DNA from: a virus
Taxonomy: Duplodnaviria; Heunggongvirae; Uroviricota; Caudoviricetes
Length of the DNA stretch: 10,891 nucleotides
Virus record (IMG/VR): IMGVR_UViG_2541047778_000014
Direction: 5' to 3' (one strand)
Shown here: positions 7,678 through 10,891 of the stretch, in pieces
Numbering within the stretch: position 1 is the first letter of the stretch
Layout of the letters: every line of letters starts with the position of its first letter
Position numbers and translations under genes: made by a program
The notes under the pieces: model-generated
Told to the model about the DNA's origin: nothing
Database searches by the model: none
The model's input: only the letters and a program-made list of their open reading frames with translations

Positions 7678-7736
7678 TGAATTGAACCGCCCCGGGAATC
7701 CTGGAGACTAAACTTCCTGAGAAAGAGGTAAACAGG

Positions 7737-8063
7737 ATGACTAAAAATACTCGTTTTTCCCCCGAAGTCCGTCAACGGGCAGTCCGTATGGTTCTGGAAA
7801 GTCAGAGCGAATATGACTCACAATGGGCGACAATTTGTTCCATTGCTCCAAAGATTGGCTGTACGCCGGAGACTCTGCGTGTCTGGGTTCGCCAGCATGA
7901 GCGGGATACCGGGGGCGGTGATGGAGGGCTCACCACCGCTGAACGTCAGCGTCTGAAAGAGCTGGAACGTGAAAATCGTGAACTGCGCCGCAGTAACGAT
8001 ATCCTTCGCCAGGCTTCCGCTTATTTTGCGAAGGCGGAGTTCGACCGCCTCTGGAAAAAATGA
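7737..8063 (+). CDS. IS629 OrfA (transposase N-terminal HTH/leucine-zipper protein)
   Basis: 108 aa; starts 55 nt inside the left IR; ends in an A6 run (8055..8060) that overlaps the orfB start. Confidence 0.9.
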
Positions 8064-8950
8064 TGCCACTGCTGGATAAGCTGCGTGAGCAGTACGGGGT
8101 CGGACCGCTATGCAGCGAACTGCATATTGCCCCGTCAACGTATTACCACTGTCAGCAACAGCGACATCATCCGGATAAACGCAGTGCCCGTGCGCAGCGC
8201 GATGACTGGCTGAAGAAAGAGATACAGCGCGTATACGATGAAAATCACAAGGTATACGGTGTGCGTAAAGTCTGGCGTCAGTTGTTACGGGAAGGTATCA
8301 GAGTGGCCAGATGCACTGTGGCACGTCTCATGGCGGTTATGGGACTTGCCGGTGTTCTCCGGGGTAAAAAGGTCCGTACGACCATCAGCCGGAAAGCCGT
8401 TGCCGCAGGCGACCGCGTAAACCGTCAGTTCGTGGCAGAACGACCTGACCAGCTGTGGGTGGCTGATTTTACTTACGTCAGCACATGGCGGGGCTTCGTC
8501 TATGTGGCGTTCATCATTGATGTGTTTGCCGGATACATCGTGGGGTGGCGGGTCTCATCGTCCATGGAAACGACATTCGTGCTGGATGCACTGGAGCAGG
8601 CGTTATGGGCCCGTCGACCGTCCGGCACGGTCCATCACAGTGATAAAGGTTCTCAGTATGTATCGCTGGCCTACACACAGCGGCTTAAGGAAGCCGGATT
8701 ACTGGCATCAACAGGAAGTACAGGCGACTCGTATGACAACGCGATGGCGGAGAGCATCAATGGTCTTTACAAAGCGGAGGTAATACACCGTAAGAGCTGG
8801 AAAAACCGTGCAGAAGTGGAACTGGCCACACTCACGTGGGTGGACTGGTATAACAATCGACGATTGCTGGAAAGGCTGGGCCATACTCCTCCGGCAGAAG
8901 CAGAAAAAGCTTATTATGCTTCCATCGGAAACGATGATCTGGCAGCCTGA
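8060..8950 (+). CDS. IS629 OrfB (transposase catalytic DDE domain; normally expressed as an OrfAB fusion by -1 frameshift)
   Basis: 296 aa; in the -1 frame relative to orfA, with ATGA overlap; rve-type integrase catalytic-core residues visible (D in WVADFTYV, D in [10 protein letters not shown] in DNAMAES). Confidence 0.9.
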
Positions 8951-9015
8951 GTTCACAGATAAAACACTCTCCAGGAAACCCGGGGCGGTTCAGGCAACAA
9001 ATACCATCTGTTGAA

Positions 9016-9258
9016 ATGCCGAATCACACATGGTTTTGCGTACTTGATATCGATGGTATGGATACGTTGGTTGACACTCGTCATTACTGCGATACCGCAA
9101 CAGCTACTCCGGCGAAAGCAAAGAAAATGGCTGCTCTGATAGAAAACTGGACTCCACCTGATGGTTGGTGCAATGGGAATGATCGAGATTGGCACGAAAA
9201 AATGAAGGGCTATATCTGCGATTTTTTACGTAAATGCAACGGCTTCAGGGGGATGTGA
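9016..9258 (+). CDS. hypothetical phage protein (80 aa), possibly 5'-truncated by the adjacent IS
   Basis: ORF starts 24 bp after the IS right end with no clear Shine-Dalgarno; the reading frame stays open upstream into the IS, so the native N-terminus may be missing. Stop lies 2 nt before the next gene. Confidence 0.4.
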   Translation: MPNHTWFCVLDIDGMDTLVDTRHYCDTATATPAKAKKMAALIENWTPPDGWCNGNDRDWHEKMKGYICDFLRKCNGFRGM

Positions 9259-9259
9259 T

Positions 9260-9832
9260 ATGACCAAAATTAACTATCAGGCACTGCGTGAGGCGGCAGA
9301 ACGTGCAATTCCGGCAATGGAACGCCTGTTAATGTTGCCAGTTGATGATGATTTGTTAAGTGAACAGGAACTTAAGGATTACGGTGTGGATATTGATGCG
9401 CTCAACGCCTTCAAATTTCTGACCGGACCAGAAACCGTGCTGGCGCTGCTGGATGAACGGGAAAGAAACCAGCAATACATCAAACGCCGCGACCAGGAGA
9501 ACGAGGAAATTGCGCTAACGGTAGGGAAGCTGCGCGTTGAGCTGGAAGCTGCAGAGAAGCGCATTGCAGAACTGGAAGCCGAACCTGTAAGCCAAACTTA
9601 CAAGTTGAACGAGCTGTCGGGCAACTATCCGGTAACTCCGGATGGTTGGATAAGCTGTAGTGAGCGAATGCCCGCTCAAGATGATTGGATTTTAATTTAT
9701 TCAAAGCACGGCGAGTATATGGCAGGACAGGTACAAGGGGAATACGTGGAGTTGAGCGACGGCACTTTATCGTGGTTAGGGAACGCCTTGTACTGGATGC
9801 CTCTACCGGAACCGCCGCAGGAGGTTAATTGA
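9260..9832 (+). CDS. Ead/Ea22-like protein with C-terminal DUF551-like domain
   Basis: 190 aa; AGGGGG Shine-Dalgarno 8 nt upstream; N-terminus MTKINYQALREAAERA plus a coiled-coil-like segment (LRVELEAAEKRIAELEA) and C-terminus WISCSERMP...YWMPLPEPP resemble Ea22-like/DUF551 prophage proteins as recalled. Confidence 0.65.
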   Translation: MTKINYQALREAAERAIPAMERLLMLPVDDDLLSEQELKDYGVDIDALNAFKFLTGPETVLALLDERERNQQYIKRRDQENEEIALTVGKLRVELEAAEKRIAELEAEPVSQTYKLNELSGNYPVTPDGWISCSERMPAQDDWILIYSKHGEYMAGQVQGEYVELSDGTLSWLGNALYWMPLPEPPQEVN

Positions 9833-10116
9833 TGGTCTCCTTCGCGAAATATACGATTATTGACTGGATAGCATTCATTCAGGTTTTGCTCATCTGGTTT
9901 TATATGGCTTACAGGAGTGGACAGTGGATTGTCAGTGTAGCCTGTAGCAATGGATGGCGTTGGTGGAACCGAAAGAATAAAAAAGCGCTGGCCTTGGCTT
10001 CGTTTTACGAAGCATTCAATCTTAACAGTCTTCAGCCTGGTTTTGTCGTTGTAGTCACCACTCAAAGCGGCATGACGATACAAATTCACAAGCCAAAGGA
10101 GGAAGGTCGTGGCTAA
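9829..10116 (+). CDS. hypothetical small membrane protein (95 aa)
   Basis: ATGA overlap with the upstream gene; one strongly hydrophobic segment (IIDWIAFIQVLLIWFYMAY) followed by a basic stretch; operon context supports it over the antisense ORF 9697..10155. Confidence 0.5.
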   Translation: MMVSFAKYTIIDWIAFIQVLLIWFYMAYRSGQWIVSVACSNGWRWWNRKNKKALALASFYEAFNLNSLQPGFVVVVTTQSGMTIQIHKPKEEGRG

Positions 10117-10393
10117 CCTGCAACTTGCCGTTAAAGGTGAATACTTCGATGCCATGATTCGCGGAGAGAAAACGGAAGAGTATCGCCTGTGTAATGACTA
10201 CTGGAATAAGCGAATTATGTTCCGCGAGTATGACCGCCTGATTATCACAAAGGGATATCCGAAGCGCGACGATTCCAGCCGCAGAATTGACGTCCCGTAT
10301 GACGGATATGAAATCAAGACAATCACACATCCGCACTTCGGCGATAAACCGGTAAAGGTGTTCGCTATAAAGGTGAATATCGACAATGAATGA
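10109..10393 (+). CDS. ASCH-like (PUA-fold, DUF3850-type) protein
   Basis: 94 aa; LAVKGEYFDAMIRGEKTEEYRL...REYDRLII resembles the ASCH/DUF3850 pattern (KPEYFEAV..G.KTFE.R...) as recalled; overlaps the upstream gene by 8 nt. Confidence 0.5.
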   Translation: MANLQLAVKGEYFDAMIRGEKTEEYRLCNDYWNKRIMFREYDRLIITKGYPKRDDSSRRIDVPYDGYEIKTITHPHFGDKPVKVFAIKVNIDNE

Positions 10394-10397
10394 TAAT

Positions 10398-10423
10398 CCT
10401 CGCACTCGCGGGGATTTCTTTTA
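10398..10423 (+). terminator. candidate intrinsic terminator after the ASCH-like gene
   Basis: CCUCGC-ACUC-GCGGGG stem-loop (6 bp with one G-U pair) at 10398..10413, followed by the U-rich run TTTCTTTTAT. Confidence 0.45.
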
Positions 10424-10465
10424 TCTGAACTCGCTACGGCGGGTTTTGTTTTATGGAGATGATAA

Positions 10466-10633
10466 ATGCACTTCCGAGTCACAGGTGAATGGAATGGAGA
10501 GCCATTCAACAGAGTTATCGAAGCAGAGAACATCAACGACTGCTATGACCACTGGATGCTGTGGGCGCAGATAGCACATGCAGACGTAACTAATATTCGA
10601 ATTGAAGAACTGAAAGAACACCAAGCCGCCTGA
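10466..10633 (+). CDS. small hypothetical protein (55 aa), not in the supplied ORF track
   Basis: Manual translation: MHFRVTGEWNGEPFNRVIEAENINDCYDHWMLWAQIAHADVTNIRIEELKEHQAA. GGAG Shine-Dalgarno 7 nt upstream; protein-like composition; stop directly followed by an intrinsic terminator. Preferred over the overlapping track ORFs 10386..10574 (+) and 10451..10699 (-). Confidence 0.45.
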   Translation: MHFRVTGEWNGEPFNRVIEAENINDCYDHWMLWAQIAHADVTNIRIEELKEHQAA

Positions 10634-10648
10634 TGGCGGTTTTTTATT
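10625..10648 (+). terminator. intrinsic terminator downstream of the 55-aa ORF
   Basis: GCCGCC-UGAU-GGCGGU stem-loop (10625..10640) followed by TTTTTTATT (10641..10649); the stem includes the ORF stop codon. Confidence 0.6.
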
Positions 10649-10690
10649 GCCTGATTTGCAGGTTCGATTCCCTATTCGGAGATAGCACTC

Positions 10691-10891
10691 ATGCAACACG
10701 AACTACAACCTGATTCACTGGTTGATTTGAAATTCATCATGGCCGATACTGGCTTCGGTAAAACCTTCATCTATGACCGGATTAAGTCCGGCGACCTGCC
10801 AAAAGCCAAAGTTATCCACGGGCGAGCAAGATGGTTATATCGTGACCATTGTGAATTCAAAAATAAGCTCTTAAGCCGCGCCAATGGGTAA
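10691..10891 (+). CDS. AlpA-family HTH protein, probable excisionase (Xis-like)
   Basis: 66 aa; DLKFIMADTGFGKTFIYDRIKSGDLPKAKVIHGRARWLYRDHCEF matches the AlpA/excisionase HTH pattern from recall; GGAG 9 nt upstream; sits at the distal end of the early-left genes where xis-int are expected (int would lie beyond the window). Confidence 0.6.
   Translation: MQHELQPDSLVDLKFIMADTGFGKTFIYDRIKSGDLPKAKVIHGRARWLYRDHCEFKNKLLSRANG

What the first reader, a model, noticed from the sequence alone, without database searches (positions are those of the whole stretch)
9829..10393. Small membrane protein plus ASCH-like (PUA-fold) protein pair in the early-left region
A 95-aa protein with one transmembrane-like segment is translationally coupled to a 94-aa ASCH/DUF3850-like protein (overlapping starts and stops). 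ASCH domains are predicted RNA-binding or modified-nucleotide-recognising folds. Their role in prophages is poorly characterised, and early-left accessory genes are often host-takeover, anti-defence or exclusion functions.
Basis: inference. Interest (0 to 1): 0.35.

Follow-up and report, generated by a model that had tools for sequence, protein, structure and literature searches.

The report
Two ordinary phage accessory genes
Two small, tightly packed genes near the end of a decayed E. coli prophage encode a likely membrane-anchored protein of unknown function (DUF4752) and a small ASCH/PUA-like protein. Both are real, common and already annotated, but they are neighbours through phage gene shuffling, not a dedicated two-part system.

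Summary
Two overlapping + strand genes lie at 9832-10116 (94 aa; ATG at 9832 is the better start, not TTG at 9829) and 10109-10393 (94 aa, GTG), each behind a strong Shine-Dalgarno site.

Gene 1 is a clear member of Pfam DUF4752. It has a conserved N-terminal hydrophobic helix followed by a basic, Trp-rich stretch, which suggests a single-pass, N-out/C-in membrane protein.

Gene 2 falls below the Pfam ASCH threshold. It nonetheless carries the ASCH octapeptide G-x-K-x-x-E-x-R, folds with high confidence (pLDDT 93), and has only ASCH proteins among its top 13 PDB fold matches.

The locus is the distal early-left ("ea") region of a CUS-3-like, P22-type prophage remnant at argW in E. coli.

The pair is not a conserved module:
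- Among 5,426 E. coli genomes, DUF4752 occurs in 546, ASCH in 1,536 and the contiguous pair in 266.
- Five divergent DUF4752 homologues all lack an adjacent ASCH.
- ASCH also occurs in virulent phages.
- The gene borders are mosaic junctions.

Function is unknown for both genes, and neither matched a known defence-system protein model. In this window an IS3-family element has removed the upstream early-left genes; the immunity/pL region that should lie there is missing too. Ordinary, already annotated, low interest.

The parts
9260..9832 (+). Upstream gene: Ead/Ea22-like N-terminus plus DUF551 C-terminus (190 aa). Its stop overlaps the DUF4752 start.
   Evidence: Pfam PF13935 at 1.1e-29 and PF04448 at 5.9e-11. 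A DUF551-type gene lies directly upstream of DUF4752 in 67 of 80 IMG/VR loci.
9819..9824 (+). Shine-Dalgarno AGGAGG, 7 nt before ATG 9832.
   Evidence: Read from the sequence.
9832..10116 (+).
   Evidence: PF15944 at E 2.7e-33, 114 bits against a cut-off of 27, covering the full length. Also phrog_667. RefSeq calls it 'DUF4752 family protein' with the same start.
9853..9909 (+). Codons for residues 8-26 (TIIDWIAFIQVLLIWFYMA): the predicted N-terminal transmembrane or signal-anchor helix.
   Evidence: Mean Kyte-Doolittle value 1.82 over 19 residues. AF2 predicts a helix over residues 9-45, with residues 11-30 the best-predicted part. The hydrophobic helix is conserved in homologues down to 23% identity.
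9955..9984 (+). Codons for residues 42-51 (WRWWNRKNKK): a Trp-rich basic juxtamembrane cluster.
   Evidence: G41, W42, R43, W44, W45, N46, R47 and K51 are invariant in alignment A2. The flank after the helix carries a net charge of +4 to +8 in five divergent homologues, against about 0 on the N-terminal side.
10096..10102 (+). Shine-Dalgarno AAGGAGG, 6 nt before GTG 10109, inside the end of the DUF4752 gene.
   Evidence: Read from the sequence.
10109..10393 (+). ASCH-superfamily (PUA-like) gene, 94 aa, GTG start, overlapping the DUF4752 gene by 8 nt.
   Evidence: phrog_625 at 1.3e-51. Pfam ASCH only at 0.068. AF2 pLDDT 93, pTM 0.81. Foldseek top 13 PDB hits are all ASCH proteins. RefSeq calls it 'ASCH domain-containing protein'.
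10163..10186 (+). Codons for G19-E-K21-T-E-E24-Y-R26: the ASCH signature octapeptide.
   Evidence: K21 is invariant, and G19, E24 and R26 are at least 90% conserved in 55 homologues of 40-80% identity. The motif G-X-K-X-X-[ETS]-X-R is quoted from PMC9599836.
10395..10446 (+). Two terminator-like hairpins directly after the ASCH stop codon.
   Evidence: Consensus scan only.
10466..10633 (+). 55-aa ORF of unknown function (phrog_676), the last gene before the argW-derived repeat.
   Evidence: phrog_676 at 3.7e-40. Annotated in CUS-3 and in RefSeq genomes.
10623..10642 (+). GC-rich hairpin followed by a T-run: an intrinsic-terminator-like site ending the block.
7683..8992 (+). IS3-family insertion sequence (orfA and orfB, 25-nt inverted repeats). 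It replaces the upstream early-left genes (hkaH, erf, kil, cIII) and the replication and immunity region expected to carry pL.
   Evidence: Pfam HTH_Tnp_1 and rve. Inverted repeat I2. Comparison with the CUS-3 and ST104 gene order.

Best explanation
These are two independent, non-essential accessory genes in the distal early-left ('ea' / exo-xis-type) region of a CUS-3-like, P22-type prophage remnant inserted at argW in E. coli.

Shown:
- Gene 1 is a DUF4752 family member. Its conserved architecture is an N-terminal hydrophobic helix of about 20 residues, a Trp-rich basic stretch, and a small C-terminal helix plus beta-hairpin.
- Gene 2 is a stand-alone ASCH-superfamily (PUA-like beta-barrel) protein with an intact G-x-K-x-x-E-x-R motif and further near-invariant polar residues (R35, Y50, H74).
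- The genes are packed into a run of abutting or overlapping genes, each with its own ribosome-binding site.
- They are adjacent only in a subset of phages.

Inferred:
- In an intact phage both genes are transcribed from pL early after infection or induction, and translation passes from gene to gene as in the rest of the block.
- DUF4752 inserts into the inner membrane with its N-terminus out and its roughly 45-residue C-terminal part in the cytoplasm. There it most likely binds or perturbs a host envelope protein, the type of activity seen in small phage exclusion or host-modulation proteins.
- The ASCH protein is soluble and uses the conserved cleft to bind, and possibly hydrolyse, a nucleoside, nucleotide or RNA ligand. 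It is not a general nucleic-acid coat: its net charge is about +1, and the conserved Lys/Glu/His/Tyr set looks catalytic.
- The two proteins act separately.
- In this window the block is probably poorly expressed or silent, because an IS3-family element has removed everything upstream and no promoter-like site remains.
For: Identity and context:
- 100% DNA identity over 9000-10891 to many E. coli chromosomes, annotated 'DUF4752 family protein' and 'ASCH domain-containing protein'.
- 99.8% identity to phage CUS-3.
- In ST104 the pair lies between ead and xis, on the same strand as erf, abc, kil and c3.

DUF4752:
- PF15944 at E 2.7e-33.
- Hydropathy of 1.82 for residues 8-26.
- The helix and a basic C-terminal flank (+4 to +8) are conserved in homologues of 23-58% identity.
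- AF2 predicts a helix over residues 9-45.
- The sense frame is conserved while the antisense frame is broken.

ASCH:
- The family comprises 753 clusters at 50% identity.
- The motif and other residues are conserved.
- pLDDT 93.
- PDB fold hits ranked 1-13 are ASCH proteins: 3iuw, 2z0t, ZmASCH, 1xne, 1wk2 and 2dp9. YqfB (9kyh) follows at rank 15. Probabilities run 0.97-0.6 and TM-scores are about 0.45-0.54.
- Viral fold hits include DUF3850 and ASCH phage proteins.
- Weak Pfam ASCH hits in 18 of 55 homologues.

Independence of the two genes:
- E. coli genomes: DUF4752 in 546, ASCH in 1,536, contiguous pair in 266.
- Phage records: 124 and 333 by tblastn, against 13 with the contiguous pair.
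- Only 28 of the 80 closest ASCH loci have DUF4752 upstream.
- 0 of 5 divergent DUF4752 genes are next to ASCH, and two of them lie in the nin region.
- 933W has DUF551 followed by ASCH; PA28 has DUF551, then DUF4752, then Ant.
- Apparent 'fusion' proteins are in-frame read-through from Ead/DUF551 genes, not DUF4752-ASCH fusions.

Expression in this window:
- No promoter-like site in 8900-10891, against 3.2 expected.
- The IS lies at 7683-8992, between NinB and a truncated DUF7739 gene.
Against: - No experimental data exist for either family. Literature searches found nothing.
- The membrane call rests on hydropathy and charge bias only. The helix contains conserved D11 and Q17, some homologues fall below the usual 1.6 threshold (1.36-1.46), and the AF2 model has low confidence (pLDDT 62).
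- ASCH membership is sub-threshold by Pfam (14.3 against 21.2 bits). Foldseek E-values are modest (0.03-0.3) with TM-scores near 0.5.
- About half of the E. coli genomes with DUF4752 (266 of 546), and 71 of the 80 closest DUF4752 loci, do have ASCH immediately downstream. Some functional link within this lineage therefore cannot be excluded.
- The ligand and activity proposed for ASCH, and the target proposed for DUF4752, are inference only.
Confidence: 0.72

Rival explanations
1. The two genes form a dedicated two-component module. The membrane protein anchors or regulates the ASCH protein, or the reverse, and together they carry out superinfection exclusion, anti-defence or host takeover.
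For: - 8-nt overlap with an internal SD site.
- 71 of the 80 closest DUF4752 loci, and 266 of 546 E. coli genomes with DUF4752, have ASCH directly downstream.
- Stx phages that lack ASCH still keep about 35 nt of its 5' end after DUF4752, which suggests the pair is the older arrangement in that lineage.
Against: - ASCH occurs without DUF4752 in about 83% of the E. coli genomes that carry it, and in virulent Jerseyvirus, Klebsiella, Ralstonia and Erwinia phages.
- 0 of 5 divergent DUF4752 genes have ASCH next to them.
- There are no true fusions.
- The same tight overlap links all four genes of the block.
- Neither protein hits a PADLOC model.
Confidence: 0.1
2. The ASCH protein is a YqfB-type N4-acylcytidine (ac4C) amidohydrolase used for nucleoside salvage or RNA-modification erasure.
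For: - Same superfamily and similar size. YqfB (9kyh) is among the fold hits, with TM-score 0.52.
- The motif region aligns residue for residue: G19, K21 and R26.
Against: - The YqfB nucleophile Thr24 is Glu24 here, and Glu is at least 90% conserved in the family. The catalytic role of Thr comes from PMC9599836.
- The hhalign match is not significant (E 0.1, 16 columns).
- YqfB ranks only 15th among the fold hits.
Confidence: 0.06
3. The ASCH protein is a non-catalytic reader of a modified base in DNA, in the manner of EVE, SRA or YTH domains. It would shield or mark DNA, for example to evade modification-dependent restriction or to regulate phage genes.
For: - PUA-superfamily sensor domains, ASCH included, are thought to recognise base modifications (PMC12191111 and PMC7641849).
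- Lower-ranked fold hits include YTH and SRA domains.
- The third viral fold hit is named 'restriction alleviation protein'.
Against: - The protein is nearly neutral, with 17 K+R against 16 D+E.
- P22-like and lambdoid phages are not known to carry hypermodified DNA (own knowledge).
- YTH and SRA hits have low probability (0.2 or less).
- The name of the viral hit could not be checked.
Confidence: 0.12
4. One or both ORFs are not real genes. The true coding sequences would be the antisense ORFs 9697-10155 and 10055-10405 (the latter annotated in the CUS-3 record), or the region would be non-coding.
For: Long antisense ORFs are open in the window. ECRS218_0062 is annotated on the minus strand in CUS-3.
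Against: - The antisense frame acquires stops in divergent homologues, while the sense frame stays open with many synonymous changes.
- The codon-position pattern favours the + frame for ASCH.
- Both + strand products belong to large conserved families.
- The ASCH product folds with high confidence.
Confidence: 0.01

Closest known systems
ASCH superfamily (Pfam PF04266; PUA-like fold), e.g. E. faecalis 3IUW, P. horikoshii PH0355 (2Z0T), Zymomonas ZmASCH (5GUQ)
   Same: [quoted passage not shown] The signature octapeptide G-x-K-x-x-E-x-R is present. It is a single domain of about 100 aa. Solved ASCH proteins fill the top 13 fold matches.
   Different: The sequence is too divergent to pass the Pfam threshold (14.3 against 21.2 bits). 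It is shorter (94 aa). It forms its own phage-centred family (phrog_625; 753 clusters at 50% identity) with additional near-invariant W32, R35, G49-Y50-P51 and H74. No activity has been tested.
E. coli YqfB, N4-acetylcytidine amidohydrolase (1TE7, 9KYH)
   Same: Same superfamily and size. The motif positions G19, K21 and R26 coincide.
   Different: The nucleophile Thr24 is replaced by a conserved Glu24. There is no significant sequence similarity outside the motif. YqfB is a chromosomal housekeeping gene, whereas this is a mobile phage gene.
DUF3850 (PF12961), ASCH-like phage and bacterial proteins
   Same: Small stand-alone ASCH-like proteins that are common in phages. Six of 55 homologues give weak DUF3850 hits, and several BFVD fold hits carry that name.
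   Different: The window protein itself does not hit PF12961. The relationship is at superfamily level only.
DUF4752 (PF15944), including ST104 orf7 and CUS-3 ECRS218_0060
   Same: Full-length, high-scoring member. It is 90-99% identical to copies in many E. coli and Salmonella P22-like and Stx phages.
   Different: Nothing differs. It is an ordinary member of a family with no known function.
Accessory genes of the lambdoid exo-xis / P22 'ea' region, and small prophage membrane proteins such as HK97 gp15 or P22 SieA/SieB (own knowledge)
   Same: The position is between the recombination genes and xis/att. The genes are small, non-essential, mosaic and densely packed. DUF4752 shares the architecture of a single N-terminal membrane helix plus a small soluble part.
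   Different: There is no sequence or fold relationship to any characterised exclusion or host-modulation protein. No phenotype is known.

Membership tests
ASCH superfamily (PUA-like) | [quoted passage not shown] | tested here: met
   AF2 model at pLDDT 93, with elements E3-8, H10-18, E23-27, H30-37, E43-48, E59-63, E67-72 and E82-88. Foldseek PDB ranks 1-13 are all ASCH proteins, with probability 0.97-0.6 and TM-scores of 0.44-0.54. The core description comes from PMC7641849.
ASCH superfamily (PUA-like) | Conserved octapeptide G-X-K-X-X-[ETS]-X-R | tested here: met
   G19-E-K21-T-E-E24-Y-R26. K21 is invariant, and G19, E24 and R26 are at least 90% conserved in 55 homologues. The motif is quoted from PMC9599836.
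ASCH superfamily (PUA-like) | Score above the Pfam PF04266 gathering threshold | tested here: not met
   14.3 bits against a cut-off of 21.2, E 0.068, with only residues 6-28 matched. Eighteen of 55 homologues give weak hits, the best at 0.003. There is no NCBIfam hit and no PDB hit by sequence or by profile.
YqfB-type N4-acylcytidine amidohydrolase | Catalytic Lys and Thr nucleophile within the octapeptide, plus an acidic Glu | tested here: not met
   Lys21 is present, but the Thr position is a conserved Glu24. The third residue could not be mapped without model coordinates.
DUF3850 (PF12961) | Significant match to the family HMM | tested here: not met
   The window protein gives no hit at E of 1 or less. 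Six of 55 homologues give weak hits, the best at 0.0017.
DUF4752 (PF15944) | Full-length match above the gathering threshold | tested here: met
   114.3 bits against a cut-off of 27, E 2.7e-33, residues 8-91 on profile positions 2-84 of 84.
Single-pass inner-membrane protein (N-out/C-in) | Hydrophobic helix of about 19-21 residues, conserved across the family | tested here: met
   Kyte-Doolittle value 1.82 for residues 8-26. Values of 1.36-2.14 in five homologues of 23-58% identity. This is marginal in some homologues, and D11 and Q17 lie inside the helix.
Single-pass inner-membrane protein (N-out/C-in) | Positive-inside charge bias | tested here: met
   In the five divergent homologues the N-flank has a net charge of about 0 and the C-flank +4 to +8. 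In the window protein the helix is followed by R28 and the cluster R43, R47, K48, K50, K51.
Single-pass inner-membrane protein (N-out/C-in) | Call by a dedicated predictor (DeepTMHMM, TOPCONS) or experimental localisation | not testable with these tools
   No TM predictor is available. AF2 gives only a long helix at moderate confidence.
Conserved two-gene functional module | Adjacency kept across sequence divergence and across phage lineages | tested here: not met
   The pair occurs in 266 E. coli genomes, against 546 (DUF4752) and 1,536 (ASCH). None of 5 divergent DUF4752 genes is adjacent to ASCH. Only 28 of the 80 closest ASCH loci have DUF4752 upstream.
Translationally coupled gene pair | Stop/start overlap with an SD site inside the upstream gene | tested here: met
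   8-nt overlap (10109-10116), with AAGGAGG at 10096-10102. Actual coupling of translation was not tested. The same packing applies to all four genes from 9016 to 10393.
Known anti-phage defence system component (PADLOC) | Match to a defence-system protein model | tested here: not met
   No hit for either protein at E of 1 or less.

The most novel reading that the evidence does not exclude
The phage ASCH family represented here (phrog_625) has a conserved Lys21/Glu24/Arg26/Tyr50/His74 cleft and is found in both temperate and virulent phages of enterobacteria, Ralstonia and Erwinia. It could be an uncharacterised enzyme or sensor acting on a modified nucleoside, a signalling nucleotide or host RNA, and so a new host-takeover or counter-defence activity. 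DUF4752 could be a separate, new membrane-located exclusion or host-modulation factor.
Probability: 0.12. Interest if true: 0.55.

Novelty: already known. Interest (0 to 1): 0.15.

Why it matters
It matters little as it stands. Both genes are already annotated in hundreds of genomes as 'DUF4752 family protein' and 'ASCH domain-containing protein', and the pairing is a by-product of lambdoid mosaicism.

The useful outcomes are these:
- The ASCH call, which Pfam alone does not support, is now backed by motif and fold evidence.
- DUF4752 has a conserved membrane-anchor-like architecture.
- The two genes should be studied separately, not as a unit.

The ASCH family is widespread: 753 clusters at 50% identity, present in about 28% of complete E. 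coli genomes and in virulent phages. A biochemical function for it would therefore annotate many phage genes at once.

Tried and rejected
Searches that gave nothing useful:
- Sequence and profile searches of the PDB for the ASCH protein returned only chance hits (a designed knot protein, BirA, ribosomal L15). The PDB sequence search for DUF4752 found nothing.
- NCBIfam gave no hit for either protein, and PADLOC gave none.
- Ten longer homologues with extra sequence beside the ASCH domain were scanned for informative domain fusions. None was found; the only hits were sub-threshold RVT_1 and DUF3850 matches.
- The apparent N-terminal 'fusions' P0163, P0164 and P0003 are upstream in-frame read-through from Ead/DUF551 genes. 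P0130 is a frameshifted DUF4752.
- Foldseek with the low-confidence DUF4752 model returned only a fragment of the same family plus noise.
- The search for related loci with the broad ASCH alignment failed because no stretch was conserved enough. A narrower alignment returned only close relatives.
- Literature searches for DUF4752, for the protein accessions, and for ASCH in Stx or prophage contexts returned nothing on these genes.

Ideas considered and rejected:
- YqfB-type chemistry, because Thr24 is Glu.
- Antisense ORFs as the real genes.
- A signal-peptide reading of the DUF4752 N-terminus. The h-region of about 20 residues is too long, and there is no obvious cleavage motif or lipobox (from the sequence; inference).
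Full report
**Observation**

- For the first ORF, TTG 9829 and ATG 9832 are in frame. The ATG overlaps the stop of the upstream gene (TGATG) and lies 7 nt after AGGAGG (9819-9824). ATG 9832 is therefore the better start, giving 94 aa, and RefSeq uses it too.
- The second ORF starts at GTG 10109, 6 nt after AAGGAGG (10096-10102). It overlaps the first by 8 nt. Conservation in homologues begins at residue 4, so no downstream start is possible.

Both ORFs are real genes.
- The DUF4752 frame stays open in homologues of 58% and 45% identity, with 23 synonymous codon changes in each. The antisense frame that is open in the window picks up two stops in each of them.
- The ASCH gene varies mainly at third codon positions (24/19/58). 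The antisense ORF annotated in the CUS-3 record varies mainly at its first position.

**Context**

Positions 9000-10891 are 100% identical to many E. coli chromosomes. The pair is 99.8% identical to phage CUS-3 and about 97% identical to Salmonella phage ST104.

In ST104 the gene order is c3, kil, erf, abc1, abc2..., ead, DUF4752, ASCH, xis, int.

The rest of the window reads as follows:
- The minus strand encodes NinB, NinX, Ant/Rha, YbcO, RusA, Q, lysis genes and a truncated large terminase.
- An IS3-family element with 25-nt inverted repeats lies at 7683-8992. It sits between ninB and an N-terminally truncated DUF7739 gene.
- A second, inverted copy of the IS begins the window (1-120).
- The replication and immunity genes that normally lie between ninB and the early-left operon are absent, so pL, which lies there in P22-type phages (own knowledge), should be gone too. 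Also absent are the early-left genes that CUS-3 has upstream of DUF7739: cIII, kil, erf, hkaJ and hkaH.
- No sigma-70-like site was found in 8900-10891 (0 found against 3.2 expected). Terminator-like hairpins follow the ASCH gene and the next small ORF.

In this remnant the block is probably not transcribed from its normal promoter. This is an inference.

**Gene 1**

It is a full-length DUF4752 member (PF15944, E 2.7e-33; phrog_667). The family is small: 42 clusters at 90% identity were found by the word-indexed search, and tblastn found 124 phage records, some only 25-36% identical.

An alignment that includes homologues of 23-58% identity shows one architecture:
- a hydrophobic N-terminal helix;
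- a G-Q-W turn;
- a Trp-rich basic stretch (GWRWWNRKNKK here);
- a short helix (A..FY.AF);
- a P-G turn and a beta-hairpin.

The supporting measurements are these:
- Residues 8-26 have a mean hydropathy of 1.82.
- The equivalent segments of five divergent homologues score 1.36-2.14. Their C-terminal flanks carry a net charge of +4 to +8 and their N-terminal flanks about 0.
- AF2 gives a helix over residues 9-45, a helix over 50-61 and a hairpin over 72-86, at only pLDDT 62. The fold search with this model was uninformative.

I read this as a probable single-pass, N-out/C-in inner-membrane protein with a small cytoplasmic domain. The call is provisional: no dedicated TM predictor was available, the helix carries conserved D11 and Q17, and some homologues fall below the usual hydropathy threshold.

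**Gene 2**

Pfam ASCH is hit only below threshold (E 0.068, 14.3 against 21.2 bits, N-terminal 23 residues). NCBIfam and PDB sequence searches found nothing. It is a strong member of phrog_625.

An exhaustive search found 753 clusters at 50% identity. In 55 homologues of 40-80% identity:
- K21 and L4 are invariant;
- L6, F13, G19, E24, R26, W32, R35, G49, Y50, P51, G66, I72, H74, F77, V84 and I87 are at least 90% conserved.

G19-x-K21-x-x-E24-x-R26 matches the ASCH octapeptide G-X-K-X-X-[ETS]-X-R as given in PMC9599836.

With that alignment AF2 gives pLDDT 93 and pTM 0.81, with a strand-helix-strand start and six strands in all.
- Foldseek against the PDB returns ASCH proteins at ranks 1-13: 3iuw, 2z0t, ZmASCH 5guq/5gus/5y6b/5y6c, 1xne, 1wk2 and 2dp9. 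YqfB (9kyh) follows at rank 15. Probabilities run from 0.97 to 0.6 and TM-scores are about 0.45-0.54. YTH, SRA and MspJI-type PUA-like domains come lower.
- Against viral models it finds family members, then DUF3850 and ASCH phage proteins.
- Eighteen of 55 homologues give weak ASCH hits and 6 of 55 give weak DUF3850 hits.

It is not a YqfB-type amidohydrolase. The profile alignment places the motifs in register, and the Thr nucleophile of YqfB is a conserved Glu here.

The protein is nearly neutral (17 K+R, 16 D+E) and has several conserved polar residues. I therefore favour a ligand-binding or hydrolytic cleft over a general nucleic-acid-coating role, but this is inference.

**Is the pair a unit?**

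It is not.
- *E. coli genomes.* Among 5,426 complete genomes, DUF4752 DNA occurs in 546, ASCH DNA in 1,536 (including 98 places on plasmids), and the contiguous pair in 266.
- *GenBank phages.* 13 records hold the contiguous pair, against 124 (DUF4752) and 333 (ASCH) records by tblastn.
- *Wider spread of ASCH.* Its homologues occur in virulent Jerseyvirus phages and in Klebsiella, Ralstonia, Erwinia and Pantoea phages.
- *Alternative arrangements.* 933W has DUF551 followed by ASCH. PA28 has DUF551, then DUF4752, then Ant.
- *IMG/VR.* 71 of the 80 closest DUF4752 loci have ASCH next to them. Only 28 of the 80 closest ASCH loci have DUF4752 upstream; 19 have a DUF551-type gene and 33 have other junctions.
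- *Divergent DUF4752 genes.* None of five has ASCH beside it, and two lie in the nin region of the early-right operon.

Homology breaks fall exactly at the ASCH start codon, or about 35 nt into the ASCH gene. The same ...GCAGGAGGTTAA... junction precedes DUF4752 here and precedes ASCH in several of the loci that lack DUF4752. This is the usual lambdoid pattern of module exchange at gene borders.

The apparent long 'fusion' proteins are in-frame upstream read-through, not DUF4752-ASCH fusions. Tight start/stop packing applies to all four genes from 9016 to 10393.

**Function**

Neither protein matches a PADLOC model. No paper in the library mentions DUF4752 or the accessions of these proteins.

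My best account is two independently acting accessory proteins made early from pL in intact phages:
- a small inner-membrane protein that probably acts on a host envelope component;
- a soluble ASCH protein that binds or processes a nucleoside, nucleotide or RNA ligand in its conserved cleft.

Both mechanisms are inferred, not shown.

**Verdict**

The feature is ordinary and already annotated. The only mildly interesting residue is that a very widespread phage ASCH family remains biochemically uncharacterised.

Noticed in passing
window 7683-8992 and 1-120: An IS3-family element of about 1,310 bp (orfA 7737-8063, orfB 8060-8950, 25-nt inverted repeats TGAACCGCCCCGGGAATCCTGGAGA) sits between ninB and a truncated DUF7739 gene. 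A second copy in inverted orientation starts the window, with positions 1-120 being 100% complementary to 7683-7802. That copy truncates the large terminase gene to 251 aa. The replication, immunity and proximal early-left genes of the prophage are missing.
   Followed up: partly
window 10656-10671: An exact 16-nt copy of the argW T-arm (TTGCAGGTTCGATTCC) lies between the 55-aa ORF and torI. The CUS-3 GenBank record labels this repeat 'attR core' and ends there, which would leave torI outside the phage. However, the 3' end of argW (TGCAGGGGACACCATT) is repeated about 75 nt downstream of torI (L001 13967-13982, beyond the window). The published KplE1 attR primers also span that downstream site (PMC3509656). 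The two halves of the argW 3' segment are therefore separated by torI at the right end of the prophage.
   Followed up: partly
window 9260-9832, and the junctions at 9810-9834 and 10090-10116: The upstream gene is a mosaic of an Ead/Ea22 N-terminus and a DUF551 C-terminus. Its 3' end plus SD site (…GCAGGAGGTTAA…) recurs as the junction in front of either DUF4752 or ASCH in different phages. It looks like a conserved linker at which modules are exchanged.
   Followed up: partly
window 10466-10633: A 55-aa ORF (phrog_676, no Pfam hit) is conserved at the very end of the early-left block, just before a strong terminator-like hairpin. Its function is unknown.
   Followed up: no
L086 4001-4270 and L085 114-389: Divergent DUF4752 homologues (58% and 45% identity) lie in the nin region of other lambdoid prophages. 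In L086 the gene lies between the replication genes and ninB. In L085 a DUF1367-like ORF lies downstream (my reading of the translation). The family therefore moves between the early-left and early-right operons. In L085 a further small ORF with two hydrophobic segments follows it.
   Followed up: partly
window 9697-10155 and 10055-10405, minus strand: Long antisense ORFs of 152 and 116 aa overlap the two genes, and the second is annotated as a CDS in the CUS-3 record (ECRS218_0062). Codon-position variation and stops in homologues indicate that they are not coding.
   Followed up: yes
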